Shown here: positions 1,332 through 41,161 of the stretch, in pieces | Numbering within the stretch: the first letter of the stretch is position 1 | Layout of the letters: every line of letters begins with the position of its first letter | DNA from: a virus | Lineage: Duplodnaviria > Caudoviricetes | IMG/VR virus record: IMGVR_UViG_3300042539_001687 | Span: 1-61,602 of that record | Reading direction: 5' to 3' (one strand) | DNA: 61,602 nucleotides | Program-made: the position numbers and the translations under genes | The notes under the pieces: model-generated | What the model saw: the letters and a program-made list of their open reading frames with translations, nothing else | Database searches by the model: none | What the model was told of the DNA's origin: nothing

Positions 1332-1333
1332 GC

Positions 1334-1849: not shown

Positions 1850-2274
1850 CTTCAAGCTCTGCAATCTATGGAACCAAATGCGATTGCCAGCCTGCTGGCG
1901 ATCTCTTTGAATGCACGTGCCAGTGCGGCGTGACCATCAAGTCCAAAAAGCGGCATGTGTTTCATATTTGCCCGGCCCCAGTTGAGCCGCTCGCAGGGAC
2001 GCTCGGCGAGCCGCCGCGTCCAGTCTCCCTGCTCCAGAAGGCCACAAACTTCGCCGCCTCCCTGGCGAGCCACGTAGCCGCCGGGATGCCGCAGGCCAGC
2101 GAGGAAGAGGTGGCCCGCCGGTTCGCCATCTGCGAGGGCTGCGAGCACTACGACGGCAAGGCGTGCAAGCAATGCGGGTGCCCGGTCGTCCGAGAAAAGC
2201 AGTTCATCAGCAAACTGGCGTGGGCGGATCAGTCCTGCCCGGTGGGGAAATGGGGGCCGGTCGCCGGAAAATAG
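1846..2274 (+). CDS. Cys-rich hypothetical protein (putative metal-binding)
   Basis: ATGA overlap at 1846; RFAICEGCEH..CKQCGC..KLAWADQSCPVGKW motif common in small phage proteins. Confidence 0.7.
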   Translation: MTSSSAIYGTKCDCQPAGDLFECTCQCGVTIKSKKRHVFHICPAPVEPLAGTLGEPPRPVSLLQKATNFAASLASHVAAGMPQASEEEVARRFAICEGCEHYDGKACKQCGCPVVREKQFISKLAWADQSCPVGKWGPVAGK

Positions 2275-2283
2275 CCCCCTGGC

Positions 2284-2292
2284 GGACATAAA
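2284..2292 (+). promoter_or_regulatory. GGACATAAA putative late-promoter motif
   Basis: Intergenic AT-rich motif that recurs ahead of several + strand gene blocks. Confidence 0.5.
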
Positions 2293-2341
2293 CCATACGG
2301 GCGCCCGCGTACGGCACCCGCCCCCCAAGAGATCGCTCGCC

Positions 2342-2794
2342 GTGACATCGTTCATGAACCCAGCCGGACCGCTCTCCAGGCTGAAGGGCGGCAGCTCGCG
2401 CCAGTCCGGAGAATCAAGCGAGACTTACGACCACTCTGGCCTGGCTGAGCACATCAAGCGCCAGGATGCCGTCGACTCGCTGCGGGGCTCCAAGTTCGCA
2501 GCAAACTACCAGGGGGACATCCCGTCCGCCGTAGAGGCCGGTAATCGCGTGCGCAACGCCGTCGCCGGCCTCCGGGAGGTCACGCCCGACGCCACCGAGC
2601 GCGATCCCCACAAGCTCAAAATGCCGCTCGTTCTCGTGCGCAGCCGGTCATCAAGCGGCTCTCTTAGCTCGGACGGCCCAGAGGCAGCTTGGGGCGACCC
2701 TGAGCAGGGGCCGCCGCTCCCGGGCGAGGGCGAGAAGCCGAAGGGCAACGGCCTGGTGTTTGGGCAGTTTGATCCGAAGTTTTTCCCCAAGTAG
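2342..2794 (+). CDS. Hypothetical protein
   Basis: 150-aa ORF in a tightly packed + strand operon. Confidence 0.65.
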   Translation: MTSFMNPAGPLSRLKGGSSRQSGESSETYDHSGLAEHIKRQDAVDSLRGSKFAANYQGDIPSAVEAGNRVRNAVAGLREVTPDATERDPHKLKMPLVLVRSRSSSGSLSSDGPEAAWGDPEQGPPLPGEGEKPKGNGLVFGQFDPKFFPK

Positions 2795-29194: not shown

Positions 29195-30190
29195 TTACAA
29201 TGCGGGAATGAAAACGCTGGCAGCAGAGAACTCGCGGGCCACGTGCAGCACATCGGACAGACTGGTCGTGAGCAGCTTGGCTGGCTGCTCGTCCTTGTTC
29301 CACATGCACTCGCCGCTGCTGCCGATGTGCATGCGGGAGAGGGAGTACATCACCTTCGGCCCGAAGCCGAGATCCTCTGGCTGCGGGATCACGCTGACGG
29401 CGAAGTCAGGGACGGACATGAACCCACGCTCGGTCTGCTCGAAGGGCCGACGCAGCCGGAGCGTGAACTGGTGCGTCACGATCAGTGACGTGCTTGCTCC
29501 GTGCTCGCGGTTCGGGCGGAGCGTGATGGTGTCCGGGTGCCGCTCGCGCGCGCGCAGCCCGTGCTCCTCAAACTTGAACCGCGTGTCCGCGAACGTGTCC
29601 TGCCAGCCGTCGAACGCCTCGAGCAGGCGCGTCGCTGCTGCGCGAAACTCATCGGACACCCACGCGCCGGCAGATGCCACGCGAGCCAGCATGTCCGAAG
29701 GCTTCTGCCGCAGGGCAGCGATGCCGCAGTCCAGGAGGACAGGCCCCACGCCCTCTTGGTACATGCCGCCCGCCCCCCACGCCCACTTCCAGTTCTTATA
29801 GCGGGACCTGATGGTGCGGTCTGAAGCGTTGAACGGCAGCCACCGATTCATGAAGTGGCCCCGCGCCGACTCGCAGACCTTGTACTGAGTGCGACCCCCA
29901 GCCGCCGGATAAACGAAGGCCAGGCCATGCTCCAGCTTGTCGTCGGCCAGAGTTGTGCCGGGACTGTGATACAGGTAGGCCAGCTCGATGCTTTCTCCGG
30001 ACCCGTGCGCCACCAGGCGGTCGTGAAGATGAGCCCAGTGCCTGTCGCCAAACCGCGCAGTCGCAATCTCCGCGCACCGCTCGCTCTCGGGCGTCGTGCG
30101 CGTGAGGCGACGCCGCTCCGTGACAGCCGCTTCGAGCTCGGCCCAATCCAGAACCGTCTTGTTCTTGTTCCGTGTCTGTGCAAGAAACAT
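29195..30190 (-). CDS. Hypothetical protein (331 aa)
   Basis: Long ORF in the leftward operon; ATG 30190. Confidence 0.65.
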   Translation of the reverse strand: MFLAQTRNKNKTVLDWAELEAAVTERRRLTRTTPESERCAEIATARFGDRHWAHLHDRLVAHGSGESIELAYLYHSPGTTLADDKLEHGLAFVYPAAGGRTQYKVCESARGHFMNRWLPFNASDRTIRSRYKNWKWAWGAGGMYQEGVGPVLLDCGIAALRQKPSDMLARVASAGAWVSDEFRAAATRLLEAFDGWQDTFADTRFKFEEHGLRARERHPDTITLRPNREHGASTSLIVTHQFTLRLRRPFEQTERGFMSVPDFAVSVIPQPEDLGFGPKVMYSLSRMHIGSSGECMWNKDEQPAKLLTTSLSDVLHVAREFSAASVFIPAL

Positions 30191-30200
30191 TGTTGACTCA

Positions 30201-30249
30201 CAAGAAAACAGGCCGGCCCGGCAGCGCAACGCACGCCACCGGGCCGGCC
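30201..30249 (-). terminator. Intrinsic terminator-like hairpin
   Basis: Perfect 11-bp inverted repeat GGCCGGCCCGG/CCGGGCCGGCC followed on the - strand by TGTTTTCTTG. Confidence 0.6.
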
Positions 30250-30274
30250 AAAGGGATTGAGAAACCAGGAATCG

Positions 30275-30580
30275 TCAGACCGTCACGACCCGCCCGTTGC
30301 GGTACGTCTCTGTGTCGTGCCGGTAGCTGGAGACCAGGGACTTGAGGTCCTGGATGTCCAGCTCCGAGCCGGAGCTGCCGCCGCGCGAGTTGCGCAGCGG
30401 GGGCAGGGCCACCCCCTTGCGCTTCAGGTAGTTGGTCTTCTGATGAACCTGCCTGGTGAGCAGGCCCACCCGATCCGCGAACTCCCGGGTCGTGTGACCC
30501 GCCGACCAGCTCTCCATGTAGAGCTGGGTAAACTGACGCCAGGTAATGACGGCCTGGCTCCGGCTACGCTTCCTTCTCAT
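30275..30580 (-). CDS. Small HTH-like DNA-binding protein
   Basis: AGGAG RBS; TREFADRVGLLTRQVHQKTNYLKRKGVALPPL. Confidence 0.6.
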   Translation of the reverse strand: MRRKRSRSQAVITWRQFTQLYMESWSAGHTTREFADRVGLLTRQVHQKTNYLKRKGVALPPLRNSRGGSSGSELDIQDLKSLVSSYRHDTETYRNGRVVTV

Positions 30581-31962
30581 ACTGCGGTCTCCTGATAAAG
30601 GGGAACTGTCTTGCACCAAGACGGGACCTGGTTGGCCCAGCCTGGATCCGTCAACGCAACGACCGTCCGGGCTCGCAGCTGGCGTTGCGGCCAGCCTGTG
30701 TACCCATCTGTGATGAGCACGATCGAGTCCGGATGGTCCTCCTTGTCCACCTGGATCAGGGCTGCGGCCATGTCCGTGCCGCCCCCGCCCGTCCATGTGA
30801 ACTTGTCGATGTTGGAGAGCTGCAGGGAGGAACGCACGTGCGTGTCCGCGCAGACAACCTTCACCGACTTCAGCTTCCGAAGACCGTCGGCGATCACGGT
30901 GAGCGCCTTGATCTTCGTCTCGCGGTCGCTCATGGACCCGGAGGTATCCACGATCACGACCGCACTGGCCTGCGTAGTCAGCTGACCACGCAGGCGACAC
31001 ACATCCTGCGGCTGCTTGCGAGACAGCCTGCGGTACGTCGCCAGCCGCCCGCCCAGTGGGTTGGCTGTGCTGGTAGCGACGACCGACTTGAGGTGCTGGA
31101 ACGGATCCGGCTGCGGTCGCAGCTGAATGTCCAGCGCCTGCTTGAGGATTCCTGGAACGGAGCCGGGCATCTTGTTCTCGTGCTCGCGGCAAGCGTTGTC
31201 CAGCTTGTGGGCGTACAGGTTCTCCTTGTACGCGCCCCAAGAATCATCCTCCTCTTCGTGCTGCCGGCGCACGCCGTCGGCTGCGGAGCCGCCAGTGCCC
31301 GGCACGCACGCCCGAGCGGCCAGTCCGTTCTTGCCTTCGCGCGAGCCCGGCTTGCCGGACTTCTGCTGGGGCTTGGACGCCTCCGCCCGGCTGTCGCCCG
31401 AACCGCCAGTCTCGCCGGCCTGCTCGGGCTCACCGTCCGGCTGTCCTTCGCCGCTGCCGCCACCGCCCTTGGGTCGGTTGCGCACAGCAGCAAGGATCAT
31501 GGAGTAGTACTCCAGCAACTCCTTGTTCTCCGGGAAGTCCAGCTTGATGCCGAGCTGCGGACACTCGGCACCAAGATGAACAGCCCCAGCCGGCCGCAGC
31601 GGGCGCATGAAAGCCAGGATCTGCTCGATGCAGAGATCGCCGGCGATGTTCATGACGAGCTGCAGGTTGGGCTCGGGGTGGTCCCCGTAAGCTTCCTGCG
31701 CACGGGCGTGGTGCCTGAGGATCAGGTGCAACGCTTCGTGCAGGATCACGTAGGCCAGCGTGTCCACGTCAAGGGCCTCGACGAACTCGGGGTCCCAGTG
31801 GATCACGCCGTCCATGCTCACGCCGCAGGTTCCCGAGCCAGGGCTCGGTTGCTCGCTGAGTGAGTAGATGTAGGTGGCCAGGTAGGGTGCGTACCCGAAG
31901 GTACGCACCCGCCCGGCCGCCAACGCCGCACGAGCTTGTGCGGCACGGACTTTGGATAACAT
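30577..31962 (-). CDS. DUF2201-like metallopeptidase + VWA domain protein
   Basis: HEALHLILRH..NIAGDLCI; acidic/Gly linker; VDTSGSMS MIDAS, GGGGTDM, ITDGY; AAAGGAG RBS before ATG 31962. Confidence 0.88.
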   Translation of the reverse strand: MLSKVRAAQARAALAAGRVRTFGYAPYLATYIYSLSEQPSPGSGTCGVSMDGVIHWDPEFVEALDVDTLAYVILHEALHLILRHHARAQEAYGDHPEPNLQLVMNIAGDLCIEQILAFMRPLRPAGAVHLGAECPQLGIKLDFPENKELLEYYSMILAAVRNRPKGGGGSGEGQPDGEPEQAGETGGSGDSRAEASKPQQKSGKPGSREGKNGLAARACVPGTGGSAADGVRRQHEEEDDSWGAYKENLYAHKLDNACREHENKMPGSVPGILKQALDIQLRPQPDPFQHLKSVVATSTANPLGGRLATYRRLSRKQPQDVCRLRGQLTTQASAVVIVDTSGSMSDRETKIKALTVIADGLRKLKSVKVVCADTHVRSSLQLSNIDKFTWTGGGGTDMAAALIQVDKEDHPDSIVLITDGYTGWPQRQLRARTVVALTDPGWANQVPSWCKTVPLYQETAV

Positions 31963-31972
31963 GGTCTCCTTT

Positions 31973-32332
31973 CTAGTCGTCGCCAAACGCGGCGACCTGA
32001 TTGGCGTTCTGATCTACGGCCTCCGCCCACGAGACGGCAGCCGCCACGAACATGGCCATCGAGTGATTGGCCAGAACCTCGATCTTCTCGTGCGCCTCGA
32101 GAGGGGACTCCTTCTTGGCCGCACGTACCGCTTTGCCGCACTCGATGGCGAGCTTGGCAATGACGGAGAACAACAGCCCGAACCGCATTGCGGAGTCGCC
32201 AGGGATCTGGCCCTCGCTCATCGCGTGAGCGGTGGCGCGGATGATCCGCATGCACGACTCCTTGCTGTCCGGCACCAGCCCGTTGTCCTCATCCGGATCG
32301 AACTCGTAAAAGTCCAGGTCTTTGACCTTCAT
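31973..32332 (-). CDS. Hypothetical protein
   Basis: GAGGAG RBS; lies between the AAA and VWA genes. Confidence 0.7.
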   Translation of the reverse strand: MKVKDLDFYEFDPDEDNGLVPDSKESCMRIIRATAHAMSEGQIPGDSAMRFGLLFSVIAKLAIECGKAVRAAKKESPLEAHEKIEVLANHSMAMFVAAAVSWAEAVDQNANQVAAFGDD

Positions 32333-32341
32333 GCTTTCTCC

Positions 32342-33460
32342 TCAGTCCTTGAGACCGCTCGGCACAAGCTTCATCAGCTTCTGCATGAGGGCCTGAGGGG
32401 GGGTCCAGCCATCGGGACGCACGCCGCCCTTCGCGACGGGCGCCCAAAGGCTCTTGAACTGGGTCAGGAACGTCTCGATCTCGTGCTCGCCGATCTCGAC
32501 GAACACCTTCGCAGCCCTGGCCCACCGCTCGGCGCTGGTCTGGGAGCGCAGCTCCTTGACCAGCCCAGTCAGCAGGCAGATCTGCAGGTCGGGGCGGCCG
32601 GCCTCGTACTTGTAGGCCTCCGTCCCTTCCAGGATTGCAGCCGGATCAATCAGATCCAGCTGGCTCATGTACCGCAGGAACTCAGCGCCGGCTGCGTCGC
32701 CGACGCACCCGACCACGAGGTCCGTGACCACCGAGCTGCCGAGCCGGTGGCCGACAGCCTCCGCCGCCGACAGGCACTTGACCACGTAGGACCAAGTGCG
32801 CGGGTTCGGAAACGAGAGGGTCTCGTCCGACTGCGGCAGCTTCTCCAGGCAGTCCGGCGCCGAGCGCAGGAACGCCTCCACGAGCGAGCCGTACTTGGGG
32901 TACAGCTCCCTGTGGCTCTCGGGCACGACCGGAAACGGAGGCGCGCTCCAGTTCAGGCCGTTGCGGTAACCCTTGTAGAGCTCCGCCTGGTCGATCTGCC
33001 ACTTGCAGTGGAAGAACCGCGACCGCATCGAGGGCGGGAGCGTGTTGCCTCCGGGAGCCAGCTCCGGCGGATTGGCCGCCGCCACGATGATGGTCGACTC
33101 CGGGAGAGTGACATCACCCACGCGTCGTTCCGTGATGAGCGACAGCTCCGCAGCCATCGTCGTCGGAGGCACGCACGTGAACTCGTCCAGCAGGAGGAAC
33201 CCGGCACCATCCTTGAACTTGTCCACCCATTGGGTGGGCAGCATCCGGATGACACCGAGCTGCCGGTCAGCATCGGGGTAGCCGGAGAAGTCCTCCGGCA
33301 GGTGGGTCGAACCGATCAGCAAGTGAAAGGTCCGGTCGAGTGCGCGGGCCAGCTGCCCGAGCACCGTCGTCTTGCCTACCCCAGTGCCGCCCCACACGAT
33401 GGTGGGCACGACCTGCAGGGCGATGAAACACGCTTCGTTCTTAGTCTGCTGAGTAGCCAT
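32342..33460 (-). CDS. MoxR-like AAA+ ATPase
   Basis: WGGTGVGKTT Walker A, PEDFSGYP, LLLDEF Walker B, AANPP, SRF, FPNPRTW. Confidence 0.92.
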   Translation of the reverse strand: MATQQTKNEACFIALQVVPTIVWGGTGVGKTTVLGQLARALDRTFHLLIGSTHLPEDFSGYPDADRQLGVIRMLPTQWVDKFKDGAGFLLLDEFTCVPPTTMAAELSLITERRVGDVTLPESTIIVAAANPPELAPGGNTLPPSMRSRFFHCKWQIDQAELYKGYRNGLNWSAPPFPVVPESHRELYPKYGSLVEAFLRSAPDCLEKLPQSDETLSFPNPRTWSYVVKCLSAAEAVGHRLGSSVVTDLVVGCVGDAAGAEFLRYMSQLDLIDPAAILEGTEAYKYEAGRPDLQICLLTGLVKELRSQTSAERWARAAKVFVEIGEHEIETFLTQFKSLWAPVAKGGVRPDGWTPPQALMQKLMKLVPSGLKD

Positions 33461-33513
33461 AAGGCCTCCTCAAGGAAAGAGACAGACGGAGCCACGCTGG
33501 CCCCGTCTAAAGA

Positions 33514-33539
33514 GAACTCGCCGACCCCTGAAATCAGGG
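33514..33539 (-). promoter_or_regulatory. Conserved ~27-bp intergenic motif, copy 1
   Basis: + strand GAACTCGCCGACCCCTGAAATCAGGG; six similar copies between 33.5 and 39.9 kb. Confidence 0.8.
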
Positions 33540-33755
33540 CAGGCTTGGATCGACCCGGACAATCACGTCCGGCGGCACCAGGCAGGACAGGCGACGCCCG
33601 TCATCCCAGTCCACTGACACCTGCAGCTGCGCGGGCCTTCCGAAAAAGCGCAGCTCTTCTACGTGCGTCACTGTGCCCTCAGTGCCCGGCTTCACTGGAT
33701 CTGGGTCATCGCCCATGTGGACGAGCATGACCCTGTCGCCCTTCCGGAATCTCAT
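33534..33755 (-). CDS. DUF4314-like protein
   Basis: GDRVMLVHMGDDPDPVKPGTEGTV..VDWDDGRRL. Confidence 0.8.
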   Translation of the reverse strand: MRFRKGDRVMLVHMGDDPDPVKPGTEGTVTHVEELRFFGRPAQLQVSVDWDDGRRLSCLVPPDVIVRVDPSLP

Positions 33756-34588
33756 ACAGAGACCTCGAGCAGGGAGCTGACAGCCAGGCCGTTCTCCGCA
33801 GCTTCGAGCGGCTCGCGCATCCAGTCGAGCTGCTGCCCGAGCGCCTCCTCGTAGCTGCGGATCTTGGACACAATCGCCTGGCACTTCTTTCGCAGAAGCT
33901 TGACCCGCTTCTCGTCGTCGATGCCAGTGGTGATCTCGTCGAGGATGCCCTGCGACTGAGAGGTCACCTCCTCGTGGAGCTGGTTGACGATGTGCTCCAC
34001 TGTCTTGGGATCAGACGCCACCTCGAACGGCACCATGTGGTACCGCCAGAGCTGGGCGTCGTCCCGCCACTGCGCGAACCGAGACACTGCGTCCGCCGGC
34101 AAGTAGTAGAGATTGCTACCGCCAAGCGCTACGCCATTGAGCCGCCGGACTACGCCCGCCACTGCGGTGCGCAGCTGGCCGGGCGACATCAGGTCGCGCC
34201 GCTGGTCGTACGCCTGCTGCAGGTGCGTGCCGATCACGCCCGCCGGCAGCTGGCCGTTGAGCTCCAGCAGCTGCACCTTGTGGCTTGCGTCCACCGCAGC
34301 GGACACCACGTGGATCGCATCGTTGCGGGTCGCACCCTTGCGGATGCGCACTGCCTCGAACGCCAGGTCGGCCGTGAGATTCCGAATCAGCAGCGGAAGC
34401 TCGGGCTCGACGGTGGTCATGCGAGCCACCTCCTTGATCGCCTCCTGAATGGCAGTCGACTGGCTCGGCGGTCGGTTGACCACGTTCTTCCAGCCCTGCT
34501 TCTCGCAGGCATCCTTCACGACCGACCGGGCGTGGGCCCGATTCGTACCGAACACGACGGCGGACTGGCCCGCCACTTGAATGCTCAT
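33752..34588 (-). CDS. Hypothetical helical protein (278 aa)
   Basis: AAAGGAG RBS before ATG 34588; GGSNLYYLP segment; located upstream of the AAA/VWA pair. Confidence 0.75.
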   Translation of the reverse strand: MSIQVAGQSAVVFGTNRAHARSVVKDACEKQGWKNVVNRPPSQSTAIQEAIKEVARMTTVEPELPLLIRNLTADLAFEAVRIRKGATRNDAIHVVSAAVDASHKVQLLELNGQLPAGVIGTHLQQAYDQRRDLMSPGQLRTAVAGVVRRLNGVALGGSNLYYLPADAVSRFAQWRDDAQLWRYHMVPFEVASDPKTVEHIVNQLHEEVTSQSQGILDEITTGIDDEKRVKLLRKKCQAIVSKIRSYEEALGQQLDWMREPLEAAENGLAVSSLLEVSV

Positions 34589-34607
34589 GGCATTCTCCTT
34601 TGGGGTG

Positions 34608-34656
34608 AAAAGAAACCGCCGGGCCAGCAGCCCGCAGGCAACTGCCAGCCCGGCGG
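34608..34656 (-). terminator. Strong intrinsic terminator-like hairpin
   Basis: - strand CCGCCGGGCTGGCAG...CTGCTGGCCCGGCGG (15 bp, 2 G-U) followed by TTTCTTTT. Confidence 0.7.
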
Positions 34657-34689
34657 CGGGAGGTGTACGAGTGTACACATTTCGGAGCG

Positions 34690-34902
34690 TCAGGTGTCGA
34701 CCATCAGCTCCCACTGATCCGCGATGGTCATCGAGTACGCCTGGTTGGCGCACGCAGTGATCGCATCGGCCTCGCTCGGGTAGGGGCCGCGCGGCTTGGG
34801 GTCGCGCGGGTCTTCGAGGAGGAAGTAGAAACAGCCATTGGCCCCGAACACCGACCCGACTGGTCGGCGGTCGAGGCGCACCGGTACCACATCACGTGCC
34901 AT
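34690..34902 (-). CDS. Hypothetical protein
   Basis: GGGAGG RBS; GPYPSEADA motif. Confidence 0.65.
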   Translation of the reverse strand: MARDVVPVRLDRRPVGSVFGANGCFYFLLEDPRDPKPRGPYPSEADAITACANQAYSMTIADQWELMVDT

Positions 34903-34951
34903 GGGAACCTCCCTGAACAGGGGTGAAGAGAAGGCAGGCCGGGCGGCCTGC

Positions 34952-35164
34952 TCAGTGGGGAGTCAGGGACTGCTCCAGCTTTCTGAGCTGGGTCGCAAGC
35001 GCCTGCACCACCGCCACGTCGTCTTCAGTGACGCCGTAGCCTGTGTCTGCCATCTCCATTGCTGCAGCTTCGTCAAGCCAGTCGTCCAGCACGTCGTGCA
35101 GGACCTGGATTTGCTTGGGCTTCAGCGGAAGGTGGACTGTCGGAACTTTGCGTGGCTGTGTCAC
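34952..35164 (-). CDS. Hypothetical protein
   Basis: AGGAG RBS; GTGA overlap. Confidence 0.6.
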   Translation of the reverse strand: MTQPRKVPTVHLPLKPKQIQVLHDVLDDWLDEAAAMEMADTGYGVTEDDVAVVQALATQLRKLEQSLTPH

Positions 35165-35316
35165 GACCTGCTCCTATACACCAGGGATCGCACCGCCATC
35201 AGGACAGCGCACCAAGCGATGGCCTGCAGCGGGTACGCATTGACAAACGACACGAGCGAATCGAGCTGGCCGGCAGTGGCCTGCACGGCGCGCTCAAAGT
35301 CGATGGCGTGCTTCAT
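35161..35316 (-). CDS. 51-aa membrane peptide (absent from the ORF track)
   Basis: Manual translation MKHAIDFERAVQATAGQLDSLVSFVNAYPLQAIAWCAVLMAVRSLVYRSRS; 4-nt overlaps with both neighbours. Confidence 0.6.
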   Translation of the reverse strand: MKHAIDFERAVQATAGQLDSLVSFVNAYPLQAIAWCAVLMAVRSLVYRSRS

Positions 35317-35528
35317 GAGTCGAGCCTCCGGAAGATCTCGACGGCCATGTCACCGCCGTCGCGCGGGGTCATCTCCCGCAAGGCTTCCGACAGCTCCGGG
35401 ACTGTGACAGCCAGCTGCGGGGGCAGCTCCTGCGACAGGGCAGTGGCCGCCCGAGCGAGAGACACGAACCGGAACTGGGGGGCAGCCTTCTTGTGGCTGC
35501 GGGTGGGAACACTCTTCTTCATCGACAT
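35313..35528 (-). CDS. Hypothetical protein
   Basis: GGGAGGTG RBS before ATG 35528. Confidence 0.65.
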   Translation of the reverse strand: MSMKKSVPTRSHKKAAPQFRFVSLARAATALSQELPPQLAVTVPELSEALREMTPRDGGDMAVEIFRRLDS

Positions 35529-35588
35529 GGGACACCTCCCGGGAAACAAGAAAGGCCGGCGCCAACGTGGCAACCGGCCGTCTACAAA

Positions 35589-35614
35589 GAACTCGCCAAC
35601 CCCTGAAATCAGGG
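35589..35614 (-). promoter_or_regulatory. Conserved ~27-bp intergenic motif, copy 2
   Basis: + strand GAACTCGCCAACCCCTGAAATCAGGG. Confidence 0.8.
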
Positions 35615-35615
35615 A

Positions 35616-35960
35616 CTATTCAGGGCAGCTGTCGAGCAGCGGCCCCAGATCCACATCGTCCGCCATTGCCTGGACTGCCAGGCGCAGGGCCTCGAGCTCG
35701 CGCACGGACTTGTCGAGCTGCAGCTTCATGATGGCCCGAAGCGAAGCCGACCTGGCCCTGACGTACGCCACCTGCGCTGGGTTGCGATTCTTCTTCTCCG
35801 CTGCCATCCGCAGCTCCTTGCGGAGACAGGTGCTGGACTTGGTGGCCGTGTCGTGGACCACGTTGCTCAGGTAGGCGGTGGCGCTCTGTGCCTTGCACTG
35901 CAGCTCCCACGCCCTGCGCTCCAGCGCCTCACACTTCTCGATATCTGATTGCGTAATCAC
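35616..35960 (-). CDS. Coiled-coil hypothetical protein
   Basis: AAAGGAG RBS, GTG start. Confidence 0.7.
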   Translation of the reverse strand: MITQSDIEKCEALERRAWELQCKAQSATAYLSNVVHDTATKSSTCLRKELRMAAEKKNRNPAQVAYVRARSASLRAIMKLQLDKSVRELEALRLAVQAMADDVDLGPLLDSCPE

Positions 35961-35971
35961 AGAATCTCCTT

Positions 35972-36286
35972 TCAGTCAGGACAAACCTCGAGCAGGGGAG
36001 CCGCCTCGAGCGAGGCGAGAAGCTCCTCTATCGACATCGAAAACTCACGCCACTCGGGACGGAACTGCTTGACTCCAAGCTCTAGCTTCGCGGCAGCGAG
36101 CTCCGACTCCGCCCTGCGAGTGCGCAGGCACTCCGACGCAGGGCCGAGCTTTCGGACTGCGTCTTCCGACTCTGACACCGTCGCGGCCAGCAGAGACAGG
36201 TTGCTCAGCAACCTGCCCATGCGCTCCGTCAAGCGCCCCAGCTGGTTGGCGCTTGCGGCCAGGCCCATCAGACTCATCGACTCCAT
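35972..36286 (-). CDS. Coiled-coil hypothetical protein
   Basis: 104-aa ORF overlapping the upstream gene end. Confidence 0.6.
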   Translation of the reverse strand: MESMSLMGLAASANQLGRLTERMGRLLSNLSLLAATVSESEDAVRKLGPASECLRTRRAESELAAAKLELGVKQFRPEWREFSMSIEELLASLEAAPLLEVCPD

Positions 36287-36594
36287 ACCCCGTACCCCTC
36301 CTTCCGGAGGGCAGCAGCCAGCGCAGCCTCAGCTGCCTCTGCCTCCTGCCGTGTCTGGTACGTGACGCTGGGCATGAGGTCCGTCCTCAACCCTGTCCCG
36401 TACTTGGTGACCCAGCCGCGATTGGCATGGACGCCGCTCTTGTGCTGGGCCAGCCGATGCTCTGCGGTGTGGGCTGTGCTGCCCACATACAGGCACCCCT
36501 TGCCACCGCCGGCATTGGCCCGGCGGAAGCGACCGCTCTGCTGCACATCGTCGGACAGGCCCACCACGTACAGCCGGAAGAGTGGCTTACTCAT
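36274..36594 (-). CDS. GIY-YIG-like nuclease domain protein
   Basis: LYVV..CLYVGST..RLAQHK..EAEAAE; GAGGAGG RBS. Confidence 0.75.
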   Translation of the reverse strand: MSKPLFRLYVVGLSDDVQQSGRFRRANAGGGKGCLYVGSTAHTAEHRLAQHKSGVHANRGWVTKYGTGLRTDLMPSVTYQTRQEAEAAEAALAAALRKEGYGVWSR

Positions 36595-36955
36595 CGTCGC
36601 CCTCCTCGTGGCAGCCACATTCAGGGTCGTCGCAGTCCTGGTCCCACAGCGCCGCCATCTCACGGGGCATGGCACGCGGGCCGTGATCCGTGATCACCAT
36701 GCGCATCGTCTTGGCAGTCAGCGCCGAGTGCACGGTCGACTGCCCGGTGAGGGTGTCGACCTCCTCGAGCGTGAGGAACTCGTGCTCCCCCAGCGGACGG
36801 TACATATTCAGGTGGCGGTGCGCCGCCTGCATGTCACGAAACATCGCGTCGATCTCAGGGGTTACCTTGTCGATCGCGCCATCCTGGTTGCGGTACAGGA
36901 CCACGAACGGGGGGACGGGAAGCTCCTTCAGTTCTCGATTCTGGCAATCGTCCAT
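36587..36955 (-). CDS. Hypothetical protein
   Basis: GGAGGTG RBS; C-terminal CDDPECGCH. Confidence 0.65.
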   Translation of the reverse strand: MDDCQNRELKELPVPPFVVLYRNQDGAIDKVTPEIDAMFRDMQAAHRHLNMYRPLGEHEFLTLEEVDTLTGQSTVHSALTAKTMRMVITDHGPRAMPREMAALWDQDCDDPECGCHEEGDDE

Positions 36956-37027
36956 CACGCACCTCCGACAGGCCGGTGGAAAAACACGAGGAGCCAGCAG
37001 CCCGGCCGACTGCTGGCCCCTCACAAA

Positions 37028-37054
37028 GAACTCGCCGGCCCCTGAAAACAAGGG
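37028..37054 (-). promoter_or_regulatory. Conserved ~27-bp intergenic motif, copy 3
   Basis: + strand GAACTCGCCGGCCCCTGAAAACAAGGG, abutting the stop at 37055. Confidence 0.8.
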
Positions 37055-37312
37055 TCATTCCAGGTCCCAAGCCTCAGCCTTTTCTAGGTGCTGTTGGGTG
37101 GGCACCGTGAGGCGCTCGCGGGCAGTCGCCAGCAGCAGCGCCGTCCGCAGCTTGCTGTGCAGTCCCGCAAGGGTTTCCATGTGGTCGTCGGTGAATCCAC
37201 CGCCGCCATCCTGGCTGTCGATGAGCGCGGCCAGCGCCTCGCCGAACAGCTCCAGCTCATCCGTGAGGAAAGCGACTGTCGCCCCTCGTGCATGCAGGGC
37301 GACGCGCTTCAC
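37055..37312 (-). CDS. Hypothetical protein
   Basis: AAAGGAGG RBS; GTGA overlap. Confidence 0.65.
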   Translation of the reverse strand: MKRVALHARGATVAFLTDELELFGEALAALIDSQDGGGGFTDDHMETLAGLHSKLRTALLLATARERLTVPTQQHLEKAEAWDLE

Positions 37313-37734
37313 TTGTCCCCTCCTTTCAGTCCCGACATCATGGATTGGATGGCCAGCCGAAAGCCGATGAGCACATGCTTGTACTCATGTTGCTCGCGCT
37401 CCCGGAACTCGCCCACGTCTTTGGCCTCTGTCCTGGCCATGAGGAGTTGCTCCTCCAGCTCGGACACCCTGCTCCGCAGATGCGACTCTTCCCCGAAGCG
37501 CCGGTAGGCGGCGGAGCTGTAGTCCGGCGGCTGGAACTCGGCGGACCACCCATCCGCCGGCGTCGTGCCATCGTGCCGCTCGTCCATCGCGATGTACCAG
37601 CTGTCGATGCCGGCCACTCCGGGATTGTCCTTGCAGTTGGGTAGCTGCGACATCAGCTGCCTCTGTGCCTGCTCCATGCCATCGGCGTTCACGGTGAACG
37701 CCACTAGAATCACGTGCGCTGGACTCTCCATCAC
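37309..37734 (-). CDS. Hypothetical protein
   Basis: GAGGAAGG upstream; 141 aa. Confidence 0.65.
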   Translation of the reverse strand: MMESPAHVILVAFTVNADGMEQAQRQLMSQLPNCKDNPGVAGIDSWYIAMDERHDGTTPADGWSAEFQPPDYSSAAYRRFGEESHLRSRVSELEEQLLMARTEAKDVGEFREREQHEYKHVLIGFRLAIQSMMSGLKGGDK

Positions 37735-37754
37735 CGAACCTCCTCATAGAAGAA

Positions 37755-37833
37755 CCTGCGGTCTACGCAGGCCTGCAACGGCGCAGGGGGAGCGGCAGTT
37801 AGTTACCTCCTGCCGCTGGACCTTGAGCCGTCA
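37755..37833 (-). ncRNA. Unrecognised structured RNA motif, copy B (loop GAGGUAACUAA)
   Basis: - strand AGCGGCAG-GAGGTAACTAA-CTGCCGCT plus GCCGTTGC; covaries with copy A. Confidence 0.6.
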
Positions 37834-38313
37834 CTCACGAACCAGCCCGGCGAGCGCATCGTCCCGCCCCAGATCCCGGATCCGAGAGACCAGCGCCTGG
37901 TAGCGGTGGTTCGTCTCCCGAATCACAGACTCCTGGCTGGCGAGCAGCTGCCCCTGGTGGGAGAGCTGCTGTTCCTGCGTGTCCCGCACCCGCTCGCTGT
38001 GGGCCAGCGCATCGGCCAGCTTGGCGACATGGGCGTCCGCCTCACCGACCTCCTGGATGCTGAGGTTCAGCGCTTCCCGCAGCTGACCCTGCACGTCCCG
38101 AGCTGCATCGAGCCGCCCCTCCAGCATGGCGATCTCGTTGGCCAGCTTGGCCTTGCTGGCGCCCGTCGCATCGGCCCATGCCTCCTCGACCTGGACGCAC
38201 AGCGGCGCCGTGTAGTGCCAGGTTCGCAGCGCCTTGATCGCGTCGCCCCAGTAGGCAACGACCACGCCGCCCAGAACAAACGCCCCGACAATCAACAGAT
38301 CACGCACCTTCAT
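37831..38313 (-). CDS. N-terminal TM + coiled-coil protein
   Basis: GGGAGGTG RBS; LLIVGAFVLGGVVVAYW followed by heptad-rich helix. Confidence 0.75.
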   Translation of the reverse strand: MKVRDLLIVGAFVLGGVVVAYWGDAIKALRTWHYTAPLCVQVEEAWADATGASKAKLANEIAMLEGRLDAARDVQGQLREALNLSIQEVGEADAHVAKLADALAHSERVRDTQEQQLSHQGQLLASQESVIRETNHRYQALVSRIRDLGRDDALAGLVRE

Positions 38314-38368
38314 CGCACACCTCCCACAGGAAAGAACGGGGAGCGGCAGAGTGCCGTCCCTCTAAAAA

Positions 38369-38396
38369 GAACTCGCCGACCCCTGAAAACAAGGGG
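38369..38396 (-). promoter_or_regulatory. Conserved ~27-bp intergenic motif, copy 4
   Basis: + strand GAACTCGCCGACCCCTGAAAACAAGGGG. Confidence 0.8.
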
Positions 38397-38405
38397 TTTT
38401 TGACG

Positions 38406-38465
38406 TCCAGGCAACGGCCCGGATTGAGTGGCGGTTAGTCACCTCCCGCCACCGGATCCGCGTCG
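38406..38465 (-). ncRNA. Unrecognised structured RNA motif, copy A (loop GAGGUGACUAA)
   Basis: - strand GGTGGCGG-GAGGTGACTAA-CCGCCACT plus GCCGTTGC; begins right after the stop at 38466. Confidence 0.6.
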
Positions 38466-38852
38466 TCAGGCCTCGATCCGATCCCAGCCTGCAGGCCCGT
38501 CGACCGGACTGAACCGCTCCCGCTCCGGGCGGTGCGCGAAGCCGATCAGCAGCTCGCTGCCCGCCTCGCCAGGGAACGCCTCCAGCAGTCGCTCATCCCT
38601 GTCGGCGTAGCTGCCGGTGCAGGTGAGCTTCTCGTAGAGCATCTTCGCCCCACCGGCGGCGTCGTCGTGCCTGAAGTCCACGAGCCGCCATTCGGGAAGG
38701 AACTCCGACAGGTAGTCGTCGAAGGTCTCGCCGATCGCCAGCTCCACCTGCATCTCCTCCGGTTTGACCGCGAACATCGTCGTGGTCCCAAGCGGGTTGC
38801 GGCGGCAGATCACCACAAACCCCAGCTGTGCCAACTTGTCGAAGTACCCCAT
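38466..38852 (-). CDS. Hypothetical protein
   Basis: GGAGGTG RBS before ATG 38852; immediately downstream of hammerhead 2. Confidence 0.7.
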   Translation of the reverse strand: MGYFDKLAQLGFVVICRRNPLGTTTMFAVKPEEMQVELAIGETFDDYLSEFLPEWRLVDFRHDDAAGGAKMLYEKLTCTGSYADRDERLLEAFPGEAGSELLIGFAHRPERERFSPVDGPAGWDRIEA

Positions 38853-38880
38853 CACACACCTCCATTCCTCGAGAGAAACT

Positions 38881-38932
38881 GCCCTCATCAGTCACCGCCA
38901 TACGGTGAGACCCGCCGAAGCGGGTTTCGGGC
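38881..38932 (-). ncRNA. Type II hammerhead ribozyme (downstream copy, HH2)
   Basis: - strand GCCC-GAAA-CCCGC-TTCG-GCGGG-TC^-TCACCG-TATGG-CGGTGA-CTGATGA-GGGC: intact CUGAUGA/GAAA/GUC core and three perfect stems; predicted cut between 38909 and 38908. Confidence 0.93.
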
Positions 38933-39112
38933 TTAAGCATTGGCCCAATACCACTCCGCCTCCGACTCCGCCTCTTCGCGTGTAGCGTGGGAGGATGCGG
39001 TGTCGTAGCCGGGCGGGAGCTCGAATTCCTTGAGCGCGTTGAAGCCCTCAGGAAACGGACCGACCACCACTGCGGGATAGTCGGGGCCGTAGATCACCAG
39101 GTAGCGATCCAT
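38933..39112 (-). CDS. 59-aa acidic protein bracketed by two hammerheads
   Basis: GGAGGTGA RBS before ATG 39112 (alternative GTG 39124); TAA directly abuts HH2. Confidence 0.75.
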   Translation of the reverse strand: MDRYLVIYGPDYPAVVVGPFPEGFNALKEFELPPGYDTASSHATREEAESEAEWYWANA

Positions 39113-39138
39113 ATTCACCTCCACGACTCAGGGAAACT

Positions 39139-39190
39139 GCCCTCATCAGCTGCCGCCATACGGCAGGACCGGCCGAAGCCGGTTTCGGGC
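39139..39190 (-). ncRNA. Type II hammerhead ribozyme (upstream copy, HH1)
   Basis: - strand GCCC-GAAA-CCGGC-TTCG-GCCGG-TC^-CTGCCG-TATGG-CGGCAG-CTGATGA-GGGC; compensatory changes versus HH2 in stems I and III; predicted cut between 39167 and 39166. Confidence 0.93.
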
Positions 39191-39459
39191 TAAGCGACCT
39201 TCGCGATCCGGACTTGGGCCTTGTCAGCGTCCCGCTTCTTGGAGCGGGCAGCGGCGTCCTCAAGGGACCGGACTCGCGTCTTGAGGGCGTCGATCTCGGC
39301 GTGGGCGTGAACCGCCATCCCGAGCGCCTGAGACGCATCGTCTGCGACCCACGAGATCGCATTGCTCATCACCCGCCAGGCGACGGCGACAGCGACCACA
39401 ACGCCGATCACCACCAGACCCTGAGCCGCATCAGCGCCGTGTTGCAGAACCCATTCCAT
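39190..39459 (-). CDS. Single-TM + coiled-coil protein
   Basis: GGGAGGTG RBS; GLVVIGVVVAVAVAW; the stop overlaps HH1. Confidence 0.7.
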   Translation of the reverse strand: MEWVLQHGADAAQGLVVIGVVVAVAVAWRVMSNAISWVADDASQALGMAVHAHAEIDALKTRVRSLEDAAARSKKRDADKAQVRIAKVA

Positions 39460-39521
39460 GACACACCTCCCAGAGAAAGAAACCACCGAACCAGGAACCA
39501 GGACCTCCCTGGCTCCAGAAA

Positions 39522-39548
39522 GAACTCGCCAGCCCCTGAAAACAGGGG
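39522..39548 (-). promoter_or_regulatory. Conserved ~27-bp intergenic motif, copy 5
   Basis: + strand GAACTCGCCAGCCCCTGAAAACAGGGG. Confidence 0.8.
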
Positions 39549-39552
39549 ACTT

Positions 39553-39846
39553 TCACTGCGGCTCAAGCACAGGGAACCAGCGCCGTCCGCCGCACTTGGA
39601 GCGCGTAGACTTCCAGATCACGGACAGCCCAGACGGGACAATGGCTTCGTGCATCTTGCGAAGCCGAGCGCCGTCCCACCTCCGCATGGTCTTCCAGGCG
39701 ATGTAAAAGCACGGCCCGAGAGCGCCGTCCTTGCGCAGCGCCGGCCCAACCATCGGGATCATCTTCTCCCAGTCGTCGACCGTCATGCGGAACGCATACG
39801 ATCCACCGTCCGGCTCGTAGCACTCAACTAGAAGCGTCTTGGCCAT
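39553..39846 (-). CDS. Hypothetical protein, first gene of the leftward operon
   Basis: GGAGGA RBS; 97 aa. Confidence 0.7.
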   Translation of the reverse strand: MAKTLLVECYEPDGGSYAFRMTVDDWEKMIPMVGPALRKDGALGPCFYIAWKTMRRWDGARLRKMHEAIVPSGLSVIWKSTRSKCGGRRWFPVLEPQ

Positions 39847-39905
39847 GGCGAGTCCTCCATGCCAGTCAGGCCACAGTCACTTGCTGTGGTTGCTGCTGAC
39901 ACTAA

Positions 39906-39933
39906 GAGCTCGCCGACCCCTGAAAACAAAGGG
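39906..39933 (-). promoter_or_regulatory. Conserved ~27-bp intergenic motif, copy 6
   Basis: + strand GAGCTCGCCGACCCCTGAAAACAAAGGG, upstream of the first leftward gene. Confidence 0.78.
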
Positions 39934-40156
39934 CCGGACGGCGGTGAAGCACGAGTGAAATGAGGAGGGGTCGACCCGGTTGTTTGGAGTTTCGGACAGG
40001 CCCTACCCGTTCGTGTTCCCGTGCGGGCGATGCAAGTCCTGCGGCAGCGCGGACTTACGACGCCAAGTTCAAAGGCCCCGAGCCCCCCAGTCGCGATCCG
40101 ATCATATATACGTACCCCCCCTGGATTTTTTCCCGATTTTGAGCGTCCCGGCCCAC

Positions 40157-40185
40157 TTGCGCGCCAGGCGCGATGGGTGTACAAC
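40157..40185 (+). promoter_or_regulatory. Sigma70-type promoter candidate for ssb
   Basis: TTGCGC-N17-TACAAC, followed by a GC hairpin and an AAAGGA RBS. Confidence 0.45.
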
Positions 40186-40240
40186 GGTGCGCATGCCCCG
40201 CCGGTTGGGCGGGGCTGTCTCCCAAGCAGAAAGGACTCGC

Positions 40241-40594
40241 ATGATCACTGCCACAGTGACCGGCAATGTGGGCAAAACACCCGAGCTCAGGACCACCTCT
40301 GGCGGCAAGCCGATGACCACCTTTGGGGTGGCGTCGACCTACAAGCGCAAGGGCGGTGAGCCCACGACGACGTGGGTGGATGTGGTGTGCTTCGACGAGT
40401 CGGCTGAGGCTGTCTGCGAAAGCCTGAACAAGGGCGATCGCGTGATGGTGACCGGCCGCGTCGAGCTGGAGAGGTACCAGAAGAAGGACGGCGGGGAGGG
40501 GCAGTCGCTGCGGATGATCGCCGATGACGTGGCCCTCAGTGTCCGCTTCCGCAAGCAGGAATCGGCACCCGCAGGAGGGTCGGAGCCATGGTAG
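40241..40594 (+). CDS. ssb: Single-stranded DNA-binding protein
   Basis: VTGNVGKTPELRTT..TTWVDVVCF..LNKGDRVMVTGR..YQKKDG; acidic EPW tail. Confidence 0.93.
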   Translation: MITATVTGNVGKTPELRTTSGGKPMTTFGVASTYKRKGGEPTTTWVDVVCFDESAEAVCESLNKGDRVMVTGRVELERYQKKDGGEGQSLRMIADDVALSVRFRKQESAPAGGSEPW

Positions 40595-40698
40595 GGGTGC
40601 CGGGCGGCGCGGACGAAATCACATGGCCAGTCGTCGCGATGATGGCGGTGCTGCTCGCAGGGCAGGCGCTCGTCGTCTGGATCGCCAGCAGACGCTAG
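40588..40698 (+). CDS. 36-aa membrane peptide
   Basis: Manual translation contains WPVVAMMAVLLAGQALVVWIA; overlaps the ssb stop. Confidence 0.35.
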   Translation: MVGVPGGADEITWPVVAMMAVLLAGQALVVWIASRR

Positions 40699-40921
40699 AG
40701 GCGGAAAGTAACGCCCCAACCGTAAGAAAAAAGCACCACTTTTCGTATCGTATTGGATATGATTTGGGCGACCGAAACTGCGTAATTGCCCACCGTCAGC
40801 CGACGCCGCGCCCTACGGCGTCTATGGGTGCTGTCGGCGGGCTGCCCCCAGGCGTAGCGCAGGTGGACAACACCCTGGCGACGATGGGACGGGGGCAGTG
40901 GCACATTCTGGAAACTGTAAA

Positions 40922-41161
40922 ATGAGCGACATCCTTGCCGACTACCGCGAGTGGCGTGACGCCCAGCCGGTGCGCGTCAGCACCCACAGCGACCGCTGCC
41001 ATATGTACCATGATCGGTGCATGATTCACCGGCTCGCGGATGCGCTGGAAAGGGCCACGCTCACCGACGAGGAGCGGGAGGCGATTGCCTACTACGTCGG
41101 CACGGGCGGCCCCGACGCGGTTGACGCCACGCTGCGGACGCTACTGGAGAGGACGACATGA
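40922..41161 (+). CDS. Hypothetical protein with TLTDEEREAI motif
   Basis: ATG 40922; motif shared with the next gene. Confidence 0.6.
   Translation: MSDILADYREWRDAQPVRVSTHSDRCHMYHDRCMIHRLADALERATLTDEEREAIAYYVGTGGPDAVDATLRTLLERTT

What the first reader, a model, noticed from the sequence alone, without database searches (positions are those of the whole stretch)
38875..39195. Two tandem type II hammerhead ribozymes bracket one small ORF: predicted 258-nt excised, circularisable phage mRNA
Seen: on the - strand, 39190-39139 and 38932-38881 each read GCCC-GAAA-[stem III, UUCG loop]-UC^-[stem I, UAUGG loop]-CUGAUGA-GGGC. All differences between the copies are compensatory (CCGGC/GCCGG vs CCCGC/GCGGG; CUGCCG/CGGCAG vs UCACCG/CGGUGA). 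The flanks GCUUA(A)..AGUUUC are conserved and could extend stem II around a bulge. Each ribozyme starts at the stop codon of the preceding gene, and between them lie only an RBS (GGAGGUGA) and a 59-aa ORF. Established: hammerheads cut after GUC, leaving a 5'-OH and a 2',3'-cyclic phosphate, and tandem copies give circular RNAs in retrozymes and viroid-like RNAs. Inference: double cleavage releases 39166..38909 (258 nt). Because stems I and III are self-contained hairpins in type II topology, joining the ends rebuilds a complete chimeric hammerhead, so the fragment could self-ligate or be ligated by host RtcB into a stable protein-coding circle. It could instead be a ribozyme-bounded mobile cassette, or simply mRNA processing.
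Basis: partly seen in the sequence, partly recalled or inferred. Interest (0 to 1): 0.95.

Follow-up and report, generated by a model that had tools for sequence, protein, structure and literature searches.

The report
Two hammerhead ribozymes flanking a phage gene
Two genuine-looking self-cleaving hammerhead RNAs sit between three small genes of an uncultivated phage and most likely chop one transcript into single-gene messages, an arrangement already described in prophages; a circular message is possible but unsupported.

Summary
On the - strand, 39190-39139 and 38932-38881 are two complete type II hammerheads. Both have a perfect catalytic core. The 8 bases that differ between them form 4 compensatory pairs. 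Rfam RF02276 scores them at 30.4 and 31.1 bits, below its 37-bit cut-off. A model built from relatives gives 100% pairing in 365 cells, with 13 of 16 pairs covarying.

The window is a complete 61.6-kb virus record, and these are its only ribozyme matches. Double cleavage would release 39166-38909, which is 258 nt.

The arrangement is not new. Perreault et al. 2011 described clustered hammerheads flanking single genes in prophages. They proposed mRNA processing, and they looked for circular or spliced products without finding any.

In relatives the module is always stop codon, hammerhead, leader, ribosome-binding site, start (23 of 25 and 22 of 25). Homologues of gene B carry a hammerhead only upstream, or none at all. 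A relative without gene B has a single hammerhead. So the pair is not a conserved unit.

Best reading: intercistronic processing modules. A circular mRNA remains untested. This is a new member of a known kind, of moderate interest.

The parts
39139..39190 (-). HH1, a type II hammerhead. Stem II is GCCC/GGGC. Stem III has 6 pairs including A15.1-U16.1 and a UUCG loop. Stem I has 6 pairs and a UAUGG loop. The predicted cut is between 39167 and 39166.
   Evidence: 92.4 bits with model R1
38881..38932 (-). HH2, a type II hammerhead with the same core and loops as HH1. Four base pairs are changed compensatorily relative to HH1. The predicted cut is between 38909 and 38908.
   Evidence: 91.4 bits
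38909..39166 (-). Predicted 258-nt product of double cleavage. In order: stem I hairpin of HH1, core strand, leader, ribosome-binding site, gene B, stem II strand, stem III hairpin of HH2.
   Evidence: Inferred from the cleavage sites; folded
39190..39459 (-). Gene A, 89 aa, with a hydrophobic N-terminal stretch followed by a charged helical tail. Its TAG stop overlaps the first base of HH1.
   Evidence: no family match; homologue in L004
38933..39112 (-). Gene B, 59 aa, of unknown function but a conserved protein. Its ribosome-binding site GGAGGTGA is at 39122-39115.
   Evidence: 6 homologues at 73-95% identity
38466..38852 (-). Gene C, 128 aa, of unknown function. Its ribosome-binding site GGAGGTG is at 38863-38857.
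   Evidence: (GC3 0.86); homologue directly behind the single hammerhead of L004
39113..39138 (-). Leader behind HH1: a pyrimidine-rich tract (AGUUUCCCUG) followed by the ribosome-binding site. CCCU can pair with AGGG of the core/stem II strand to form an alternative hairpin.
38853..38880 (-). Leader behind HH2: AGUUUCUCUC followed by the ribosome-binding site.
39520..39541 (-). Copy of a repeated intergenic motif (D1), followed by a variable hairpin, upstream of gene A. This is the likely start of the A-B-C transcription unit.
   Evidence: role inferred
38367..38388 (-). Next D1 motif copy, downstream of gene C and upstream of gene D. It bounds the A-B-C unit.
   Evidence: role inferred

Best explanation
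Two active type II hammerhead ribozymes act independently as intercistronic processing modules in a leftward transcript that carries genes A, B and C.

Each module is stop codon, hammerhead, pyrimidine-rich leader, ribosome-binding site, start. Co-transcriptional self-cleavage after GUC cuts the transcript into three single-gene mRNAs.

Because the open helix is stem II, the cut falls between two closed hairpins. The upstream message therefore ends in the GC-rich UUCG-capped stem III hairpin plus a 2',3'-cyclic phosphate. The downstream message begins with a 5'-OH flush on the stem I hairpin, 40-50 nt ahead of its ribosome-binding site. The only thing holding the products together is the 4-pair stem II, which a downstream CCCU can displace.

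The result would be hairpin-capped, context-insulated messages whose stability and translation are uncoupled from their neighbours. This resembles the synthetic ribozyme insulator RiboJ.

Shown here: the sequences, folds, covariation, placement and comparative gene content. Inferred: cleavage in vivo, co-transcription of A-B-C, and the stabilising or insulating effect. The 258-nt gene B message is simply the middle product.
For: Ribozyme identity:
- The core is perfect and there are 4 compensatory pairs between the copies.
- RF02276 is the only family matched in the window.
- Model R1 finds 28 matches at E<=1 in 457,105 bases of 43 sources.
- On the 26 distinct rows, 100% of 365 cells pair and 13 of 16 pairs change on both sides. 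0 of 500 shuffles reach this, and slid controls pair in 28-44% of cells.

Placement:
- I dropped 3 of the 28 matches: two duplicates (L024, L016) and one partial (L012:7636). That left 25.
- 23 of 25 have an upstream frame stop within -12 to +2 nt of the ribozyme's 5' edge.
- 22 of 25 have a ribosome-binding site and start 9-59 nt behind it.

Independence of the two copies:
- L004 has A, one hammerhead, then C.
- L013/L046/L050 and L048/L051 have a hammerhead, then B, then a D1 motif, with no second ribozyme.
- L049 has a gene B homologue with no ribozyme at all.

Leader equivalence: genes A, D and the gene starting at 33460 have D1 motif, hairpin, U/C-rich tract and GGAGGTG. B and C have a hammerhead hairpin, U/C-rich tract and GGAGGTG.

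Literature:
- Clustered hammerheads flanking single genes in prophages cleaved in vitro, and one set cleaved in E. coli. Processing of long phage transcripts was the authors' reading (passages).
- A 2019 review repeats this reading and calls the function unresolved (passages).
- RiboJ raised protein 2-10 fold and transcript about 2 fold (abstract).
Against: - No cleavage assay or RNA data exist for this phage.
- Rfam scores are below the curated cut-off (30.4 and 31.1 against 37).
- I could not find, by eye, the loop I to 3'-tail pseudoknot of 4 or more pairs that Perreault et al. report for many type II hammerheads. The UAUGG loop finds at best 2+2 pairs around a mismatch. Cleavage at cellular Mg2+ may therefore be slow.
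- The alternative hairpin AGGG:CCCU could compete with the active fold before cleavage as well as after it.
- Co-transcription of A-B-C rests only on the absence of a D1 motif between them. No sigma-70-type promoter was found anywhere in 33000-41000.
- The covariation alignment was fitted to the model, and most loci were picked with a pattern that fixed the core and stem II.
- That 5'-OH and terminal hairpins protect bacterial mRNAs is recalled knowledge, not tested here.
Confidence: 0.6

Rival explanations
1. Circular mRNA. After double cleavage the 258-nt fragment is joined end to end, by the reassembled chimeric hammerhead or by a host RtcB ligase. The circle is exonuclease-resistant and is translated into the 59-aa protein.
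For: - The chemistry fits. The fragment would carry a 5'-OH and a 2',3'-cyclic phosphate, and it holds both halves of a complete type II hammerhead.
- Constraining stem II to form costs only 0.5 kcal/mol in the linear fragment.
- RtcB circularised hammerhead-excised retrozyme monomers at 30% to over 80% in vitro, against 1-3% self-ligation (passages).
- RtcB is common in prokaryotes, matching in 10 of 14 control genomes.
Against: - Gene B homologues elsewhere lack the second ribozyme or both, so a circle cannot be how gene B is generally expressed.
- Predicted probability of stem II is 0.12 in the linear fragment and 0.003 in the circle, with the competitor hairpin at 0.78-0.90.
- The phage has no RtcB, and the host is unknown.
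- Perreault et al. could not detect circular or spliced products from comparable clusters.
- My searches of the held library found no report of hammerhead-derived circular mRNAs in phages.
Confidence: 0.1
2. Recombination or cassette element. The near-identical hammerheads mainly matter at the DNA level, as portable homology at gene boundaries. Unequal crossing-over between copies adds or removes 'hammerhead plus gene' units. A rarer version is that the 258-nt unit entered at the scissile bond through an RNA intermediate.
For: - Relative to L004 (A, hammerhead, C), the window carries exactly one extra unit of 258 bp.
- L004's single ribozyme has the stem III of HH1 and the stem I of HH2. This places the junction within GGUC at the cleavage site.
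- In 4 of the 5 pairs that share a homologous flank, only one side is homologous. Local alignment scores are 92-190 for the homologous side and 11-19 for the other.
- Five loci share identical stems in non-homologous contexts, and all four combinations of the two stem III and two stem I variants occur.
Against: - Mosaic junctions in phages fall between genes anyway.
- If a crossover could fall anywhere in the three identical stretches that keep both stems intact (10, 4 and 17 nt), landing in the 4-nt stretch has a chance of about 0.13. That is not significant.
- L004 is 13-28% diverged, and its loop I differs.
- L013 carries HH2-type stems at the HH1 position, so stems do not track genes cleanly.
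- The phage has no reverse transcriptase.
- This reading does not explain the strict maintenance of the catalytic core and the RNA-only G-U pairs, so it can only be an addition to RNA function.
Confidence: 0.12
3. Regulated or down-regulating cleavage. The ribozymes are switches: the alternative hairpin, Mg2+ or a factor sets the cleaved fraction. Alternatively, cleavage marks the messages for decay and so tunes the ratio of A, B and C.
For: - A conserved CCC(U) lies 5-8 nt behind stem II in most members whose stem II is GGGC. It forms a competing hairpin predicted at 0.78 probability.
- Perreault et al. suggest that regulated cleavage is possible for phage hammerheads.
Against: - The same U/C-rich tract occurs in leaders that have no ribozyme, so it may simply be a translation leader.
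- There is no aptamer-like extra domain; the elements are minimal at 52 nt.
- Both products keep terminal hairpins, which argues for stabilisation rather than decay.
Confidence: 0.12
4. Inactive relics or a chance resemblance.
For: The sites are below the Rfam gathering score, and no tertiary contact was identified.
Against: - All core positions are intact in both copies.
- All 4 differences between the copies are compensatory.
- Pairing is 100% across 26 distinct relatives.
- The pattern gives 2 matches against 0.03 expected.
Confidence: 0.03

Closest known systems
Clustered hammerhead ribozymes flanking single genes in prophages (Perreault et al. 2011, PLoS Comput Biol, PMC3088659)
   Same: - Several hammerheads lie close together, including type II.
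- They flank individual genes of varying identity in phage DNA.
- The authors' reading was processing of long phage transcripts into single-gene mRNAs.
- Circular or spliced products were considered there too (passages read).
   Different: - This is a free, complete, uncultivated phage genome with no match among deposited phages.
- The unit is very small (258 nt, one 59-aa ORF).
- Relatives here show the unit present or absent.
- Their Figure 3, supplementary figures and alignment dataset were not visible to me, so I cannot say whether this subfamily is already in their set.
Rfam RF02276 Hammerhead_II
   Same: Same permutation (open stem II), same core, and a full-length match to model positions 1-66.
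   Different: - Scores are 30.4 and 31.1 bits against the 37-bit gathering score.
- Stem II is longer (4 pairs), and the stem III and stem I loops are shorter.
- The model's loop I UGG and tail GCCA pairing partners are not matched (alignment).
Retrozymes and viroid-like RNAs (tandem hammerheads giving circular RNAs)
   Same: - Two hammerheads of the same polarity bound a short unit.
- The excised RNA would have RtcB-compatible ends and both ribozyme halves.
   Different: - Those carry type I or III ribozymes on non-coding, multi-copy elements that fold into rods and move through reverse transcription.
- Here the ribozymes are type II, the unit is a single-copy protein-coding unit, and no reverse transcriptase is present.
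- The extra fold stability is only modest (z = -1.78).
RiboJ synthetic ribozyme insulator
   Same: A self-cleaving hammerhead-type ribozyme placed ahead of a ribosome-binding site, which leaves a hairpin at the new 5' end and raises or insulates downstream expression (abstract; the anatomy of RiboJ is recalled).
   Different: RiboJ is engineered and sits behind promoters. The elements here are natural, sit between cistrons, and also leave a hairpin on the upstream product.

Membership tests
Hammerhead ribozyme, type II | Conserved core: CUGANGA, GAAA, and an A15.1-U16.1 pair followed by H17 | tested here: met
   Both copies have CUGAUGA, GAAA, A-U closing stem III, and GUC with C17
Hammerhead ribozyme, type II | Three helices around the core, supported by covariation, with no mispair next to the core | tested here: met
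   There are 4 compensatory pairs between the copies. Across 26 distinct relatives 100% of 365 cells pair and 13 of 16 pairs covary. The alignment was fitted to the model.
Hammerhead ribozyme, type II | Open helix is stem II; stems I and III are closed by loops | tested here: met
Hammerhead ribozyme, type II | Score at or above the Rfam RF02276 gathering score (37 bits) | tested here: not met
   30.4 and 31.1 bits. This is a curation threshold, not a structural feature.
Hammerhead ribozyme, type II | Tertiary contact: a pseudoknot between loop I and the bases just 3' of stem II (many type II members) | tested here: inconclusive
   By eye, 4-pair pseudoknots are plausible in several relatives (L018, L009, L007, L008, L010, L006, L015). 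They are not plausible for the UAUGG loops of the window.
Hammerhead ribozyme, type II | Mg2+-dependent self-cleavage after H17 | not testable with these tools
   Needs in vitro transcription
Clustered phage/prophage hammerheads (Perreault 2011) | Two or more hammerheads close together flanking single genes or short gene blocks in phage DNA | tested here: met
   The window is a complete virus record with two ribozymes 258 nt apart around one ORF. The same is seen in L018 (4 ribozymes), L009 (3) and L019 (2).
Retrozyme / viroid-like circular RNA | Circular RNA detected | not testable with these tools
Retrozyme / viroid-like circular RNA | Multi-copy, non-coding unit mobilised by reverse transcription or RNA replication | tested here: not met
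   The unit is a single copy that encodes a conserved 59-aa protein. There is no reverse transcriptase in the genome.

The most novel reading that the evidence does not exclude
The 258-nt unit bounded by the two scissile bonds is a discrete RNA-defined cassette. It is released by double self-cleavage and closed by a host RtcB-type ligase (or by the reassembled chimeric hammerhead) into a small translated circular mRNA. The same boundaries mark where the cassette was gained relative to L004-like phages, whose single ribozyme is exactly the stem III(HH1)/stem I(HH2) chimera.
Probability: 0.08. Interest if true: 0.8.

Novelty: new member of a known kind. Interest (0 to 1): 0.35.

Why it matters
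The biological role of bacterial and phage hammerheads is still described as largely unknown. This locus is a compact, clean test case for three reasons.
- It has two minimal 52-nt ribozymes, three tiny genes, and natural relatives with one, or zero, ribozymes at the same genes.
- It shows that automated Rfam annotation at the gathering score misses this subfamily entirely.
- It offers a concrete, testable rationale for the type II permutation in phages: both cleavage products keep a flush terminal hairpin.

If the circle or cassette reading were true, it would be the first protein-coding ribozyme-made circular mRNA in a phage. Nothing here supports that beyond chemical plausibility.

Tried and rejected
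**What led nowhere or was rejected**
- Deposited phages: no DNA match for 38000-40000 or 37500-40500 and no protein match for the portal-like ORF. Lineage and host remain unknown.
- Pfam and PHROGs gave nothing usable for genes A-D.
- Rfam in E-value mode over 33000-41000 and over the whole window showed no second ribozyme class. The repeated D1 motif is therefore not a known ribozyme.
- A genome-contig scan with the core pattern gave 8 loci. Only one (L055, an acidobacterial MAG) is a good match to model R1, so it gives no clue to the host.
Its 5' flank is not conserved in relatives. Rejected.
- I looked by eye for a loop I to tail pseudoknot in the window copies. It was not convincing.
- The whole-precursor minimum-energy fold (411 nt) does not show the hammerheads. 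I take this as a limit of global folding, not as evidence.
I used one metagenome-contig scan instead. It returned only 4 gene B loci, 3 of them on short contigs.
- Supplements of Perreault et al. (their figures of tandem arrangements and the full alignment) could not be seen, and they may already contain this subfamily.

Full report
**What is there**

The window is a complete virus record of 61,602 bp with direct terminal repeats and 65% G+C. It has no DNA or portal-protein match among deposited phages.

Two 52-nt elements lie on the - strand, at 39190-39139 (HH1) and 38932-38881 (HH2). Each reads GCCC, GAAA, a 5-pair hairpin with a UUCG loop that the A-U pair extends, UC, a 6-pair hairpin with a UAUGG loop, CUGAUGA, then GGGC. 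This is the full hammerhead core in the type II permutation.

The copies differ at 8 bases, and all 8 form 4 compensatory pairs. A loose core pattern matches twice against 0.03 expected. Each element folds into the three-way junction as its minimum-energy structure.

Rfam reports nothing at gathering score. In E-value mode the only credible matches in the whole genome are these two sites. Both match RF02276 Hammerhead_II over the full length of the model, at 30.4 and 31.1 bits against a cut-off of 37.

**Gene setting**

- Gene A's TAG stop overlaps the first G of HH1.
- Gene B's TAA stop abuts HH2.
- Between the ribozymes lie a 26-nt leader with GGAGGTGA and a 59-aa ORF.
- Behind HH2 lie a 28-nt leader with GGAGGTG and the 128-aa gene C.
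- The predicted cuts at 39167|39166 and 38909|38908 release 258 nt.

That extension is not conserved.

**Relatives support real ribozymes**

A pattern with the same stem II found 17 IMG/VR loci. I built model R1 from 9 of these sequences. It found 28 matches at E<=1 in 43 sources totalling 457,105 bases.

On the 26 distinct rows, all 365 cells form standard pairs and 13 of 16 pairs change on both sides. No shuffle out of 500 reaches this. Sliding the partners drops pairing to 28-44%.

Two caveats apply. The alignment is fitted to the model. Most loci were selected with a pattern that fixed the core and stem II. Stems I and III were free, however, and they carry most of the covariation, including G-U pairs that only make sense in RNA.

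**The module is a gene separator, not a pair**

I dropped three of the 28 matches: two duplicates (L024, L016) and one partial (L012:7636). Of the remaining 25:
- 23 have an upstream frame stop within -12 to +2 nt of the ribozyme's 5' edge.
- 22 have a ribosome-binding site and start 9-59 nt behind it.
- The misses are two weak hits (L005, L012) and one locus that ends too early (L020).

Clusters occur elsewhere: L018 has four ribozymes in about 2 kb, L009 has three and L019 has two. That is 3 of the 17 pattern-selected loci.

Close relatives of this phage share 68-87% DNA identity in shared genes. They show the following arrangements:

| Locus | Arrangement |
|---|---|
| Window | A, hammerhead, B, hammerhead, C |
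| L004 | A, one hammerhead, C (no gene B) |
| L013/L046/L050 and L048/L051 | hammerhead, B, repeated intergenic motif, a different gene (no second ribozyme) |
| L049 (gene B homologue, 76% identity) | no ribozyme on either side |

Each ribozyme therefore goes with a gene junction. The bracketing of gene B is peculiar to this genome.

**Leaders**

In the same leftward block, genes A, D and others are preceded by a repeated motif (D1, six copies). After it come a variable GC-rich hairpin, a U/C-rich tract and GGAGGTG.

Genes B and C have the stem I hairpin of a hammerhead, a U/C-rich tract (AGUUUCCCUG or AGUUUCUCUC) and GGAGGTG.

The A-B-C unit lies between two D1 copies (39541-39520 and 38388-38367). 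I infer one transcript that the ribozymes divide. This is not shown: no sigma-70-type promoter was found in 33000-41000.

**Mechanism proposed**

Cleavage in a type II hammerhead falls between two closed hairpins.
- The upstream mRNA ends in the UUCG-capped stem III plus UC with a cyclic phosphate.
- The downstream mRNA starts with a 5'-OH at the base of stem I.
- Only the 4-pair stem II links the products.
- The downstream CCCU can pair with AGGG, with probability 0.78 in the excised fragment. This would favour release and disfavour re-ligation.

That terminal hairpins, 5'-OH and cyclic phosphate slow bacterial RNases is recalled knowledge. RiboJ, a synthetic ribozyme insulator, raised protein 2-10 fold and transcript about 2 fold (abstract).

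**What is known**

Perreault et al. 2011 wrote that multiple hammerheads often flank individual genes or short gene blocks in prophages, and that the gene identities vary. They suggested that long phage transcripts may be processed into single-gene mRNAs. They also noted that spliced or circular products were conceivable but were not detected. Three tandem sets cleaved in vitro, and one set cleaved in E. coli (passages read; their figures and supplements were not seen).

A 2019 review repeats the processing idea and calls the function unresolved (passages). My searches of the held library found no report of a hammerhead-made circular mRNA in a phage.

**The circle**

The idea is chemically sound.
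- RtcB circularised hammerhead-excised retrozyme RNAs at 30% to over 80%, against 1-3% self-ligation.
- RtcB is common, matching in 10 of 14 control genomes.

Several things count against it as the selected function.
- The phage has no RtcB and no reverse transcriptase.
- The predicted probability that stem II re-forms is 0.12 in the linear fragment and 0.003 in the circle.
- The fragment is only modestly structured (z = -1.78).
- The comparative data show that gene B does not need a second ribozyme.

No RNA reads could be consulted.

**The cassette idea**

L004's single ribozyme combines the stem III of HH1 with the stem I of HH2. The 258-bp difference between the two phages therefore has its junction inside GGUC at the cleavage site.

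In 4 of the 5 pairs that share a homologous flank, homology holds on only one side of the ribozyme. All four combinations of the two stem III and two stem I variants occur, and five loci share identical stems in unrelated contexts.

This fits hammerheads acting as portable homology for unequal crossing-over. The junction position has a chance probability of about 0.13 under a simple model. L004 is diverged, and L013 breaks the pattern. I rate it as a secondary, DNA-level consequence.

**Verdict**

These are real type II hammerheads and a new member of the known class of clustered phage hammerheads. The most likely role is intercistronic processing (0.6). The circular-mRNA reading is not excluded but is unsupported (about 0.1). 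Interest is moderate.

Noticed in passing
window - strand: 39925-39904, 39541-39520, 38388-38367, 37047-37026, 35608-35587, 33533-33512: Six copies of a conserved intergenic motif of about 37 nt (a small hairpin followed by GGCGAGTTCTT). Each is followed by a variable GC-rich hairpin, a U/C-rich tract and the ribosome-binding site of the next gene. The same motif occurs in related phages L004, L006, L011, L013, L015 and L020. It is not a known Rfam family and not sigma-70-like. It could be a phage-specific promoter with a 5' stabilising hairpin, or an operator/terminator unit.
   Followed up: partly
window - strand 38445-38435 and 37809-37799; also L004 near 345 and L013 near 380 and 1590: Hairpins with variable, covarying stems and a conserved loop GAGGTRACTAA, lying shortly after stop codons and upstream of the D1 motif. 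There are 3 matches with up to 1 mismatch, against 0.41 expected.
   Followed up: partly
L018 (IMG/VR contig, 12,815 bp) 416-2464 - strand; L009 5687-7348 - strand: Four and three type II hammerheads in a row, each in front of a separate small gene. Several have 4-pair loop I to tail pseudoknots that change together between copies.
   Followed up: partly
window 38909-39166: The hammerhead-bounded unit is 258 nt, exactly 86 codons. Gene B's in-frame TAA would stop any rolling-circle translation, so this is probably coincidence.
   Followed up: no
window 29195-34753 - strand: The leftward block also encodes an AAA-type ATPase (32342-33460, phrog_1297) and a DUF2201 metallopeptidase/VWA-like protein (30577-31986). 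These are MoxR/VWA-style partners of unknown role in this phage.
   Followed up: no
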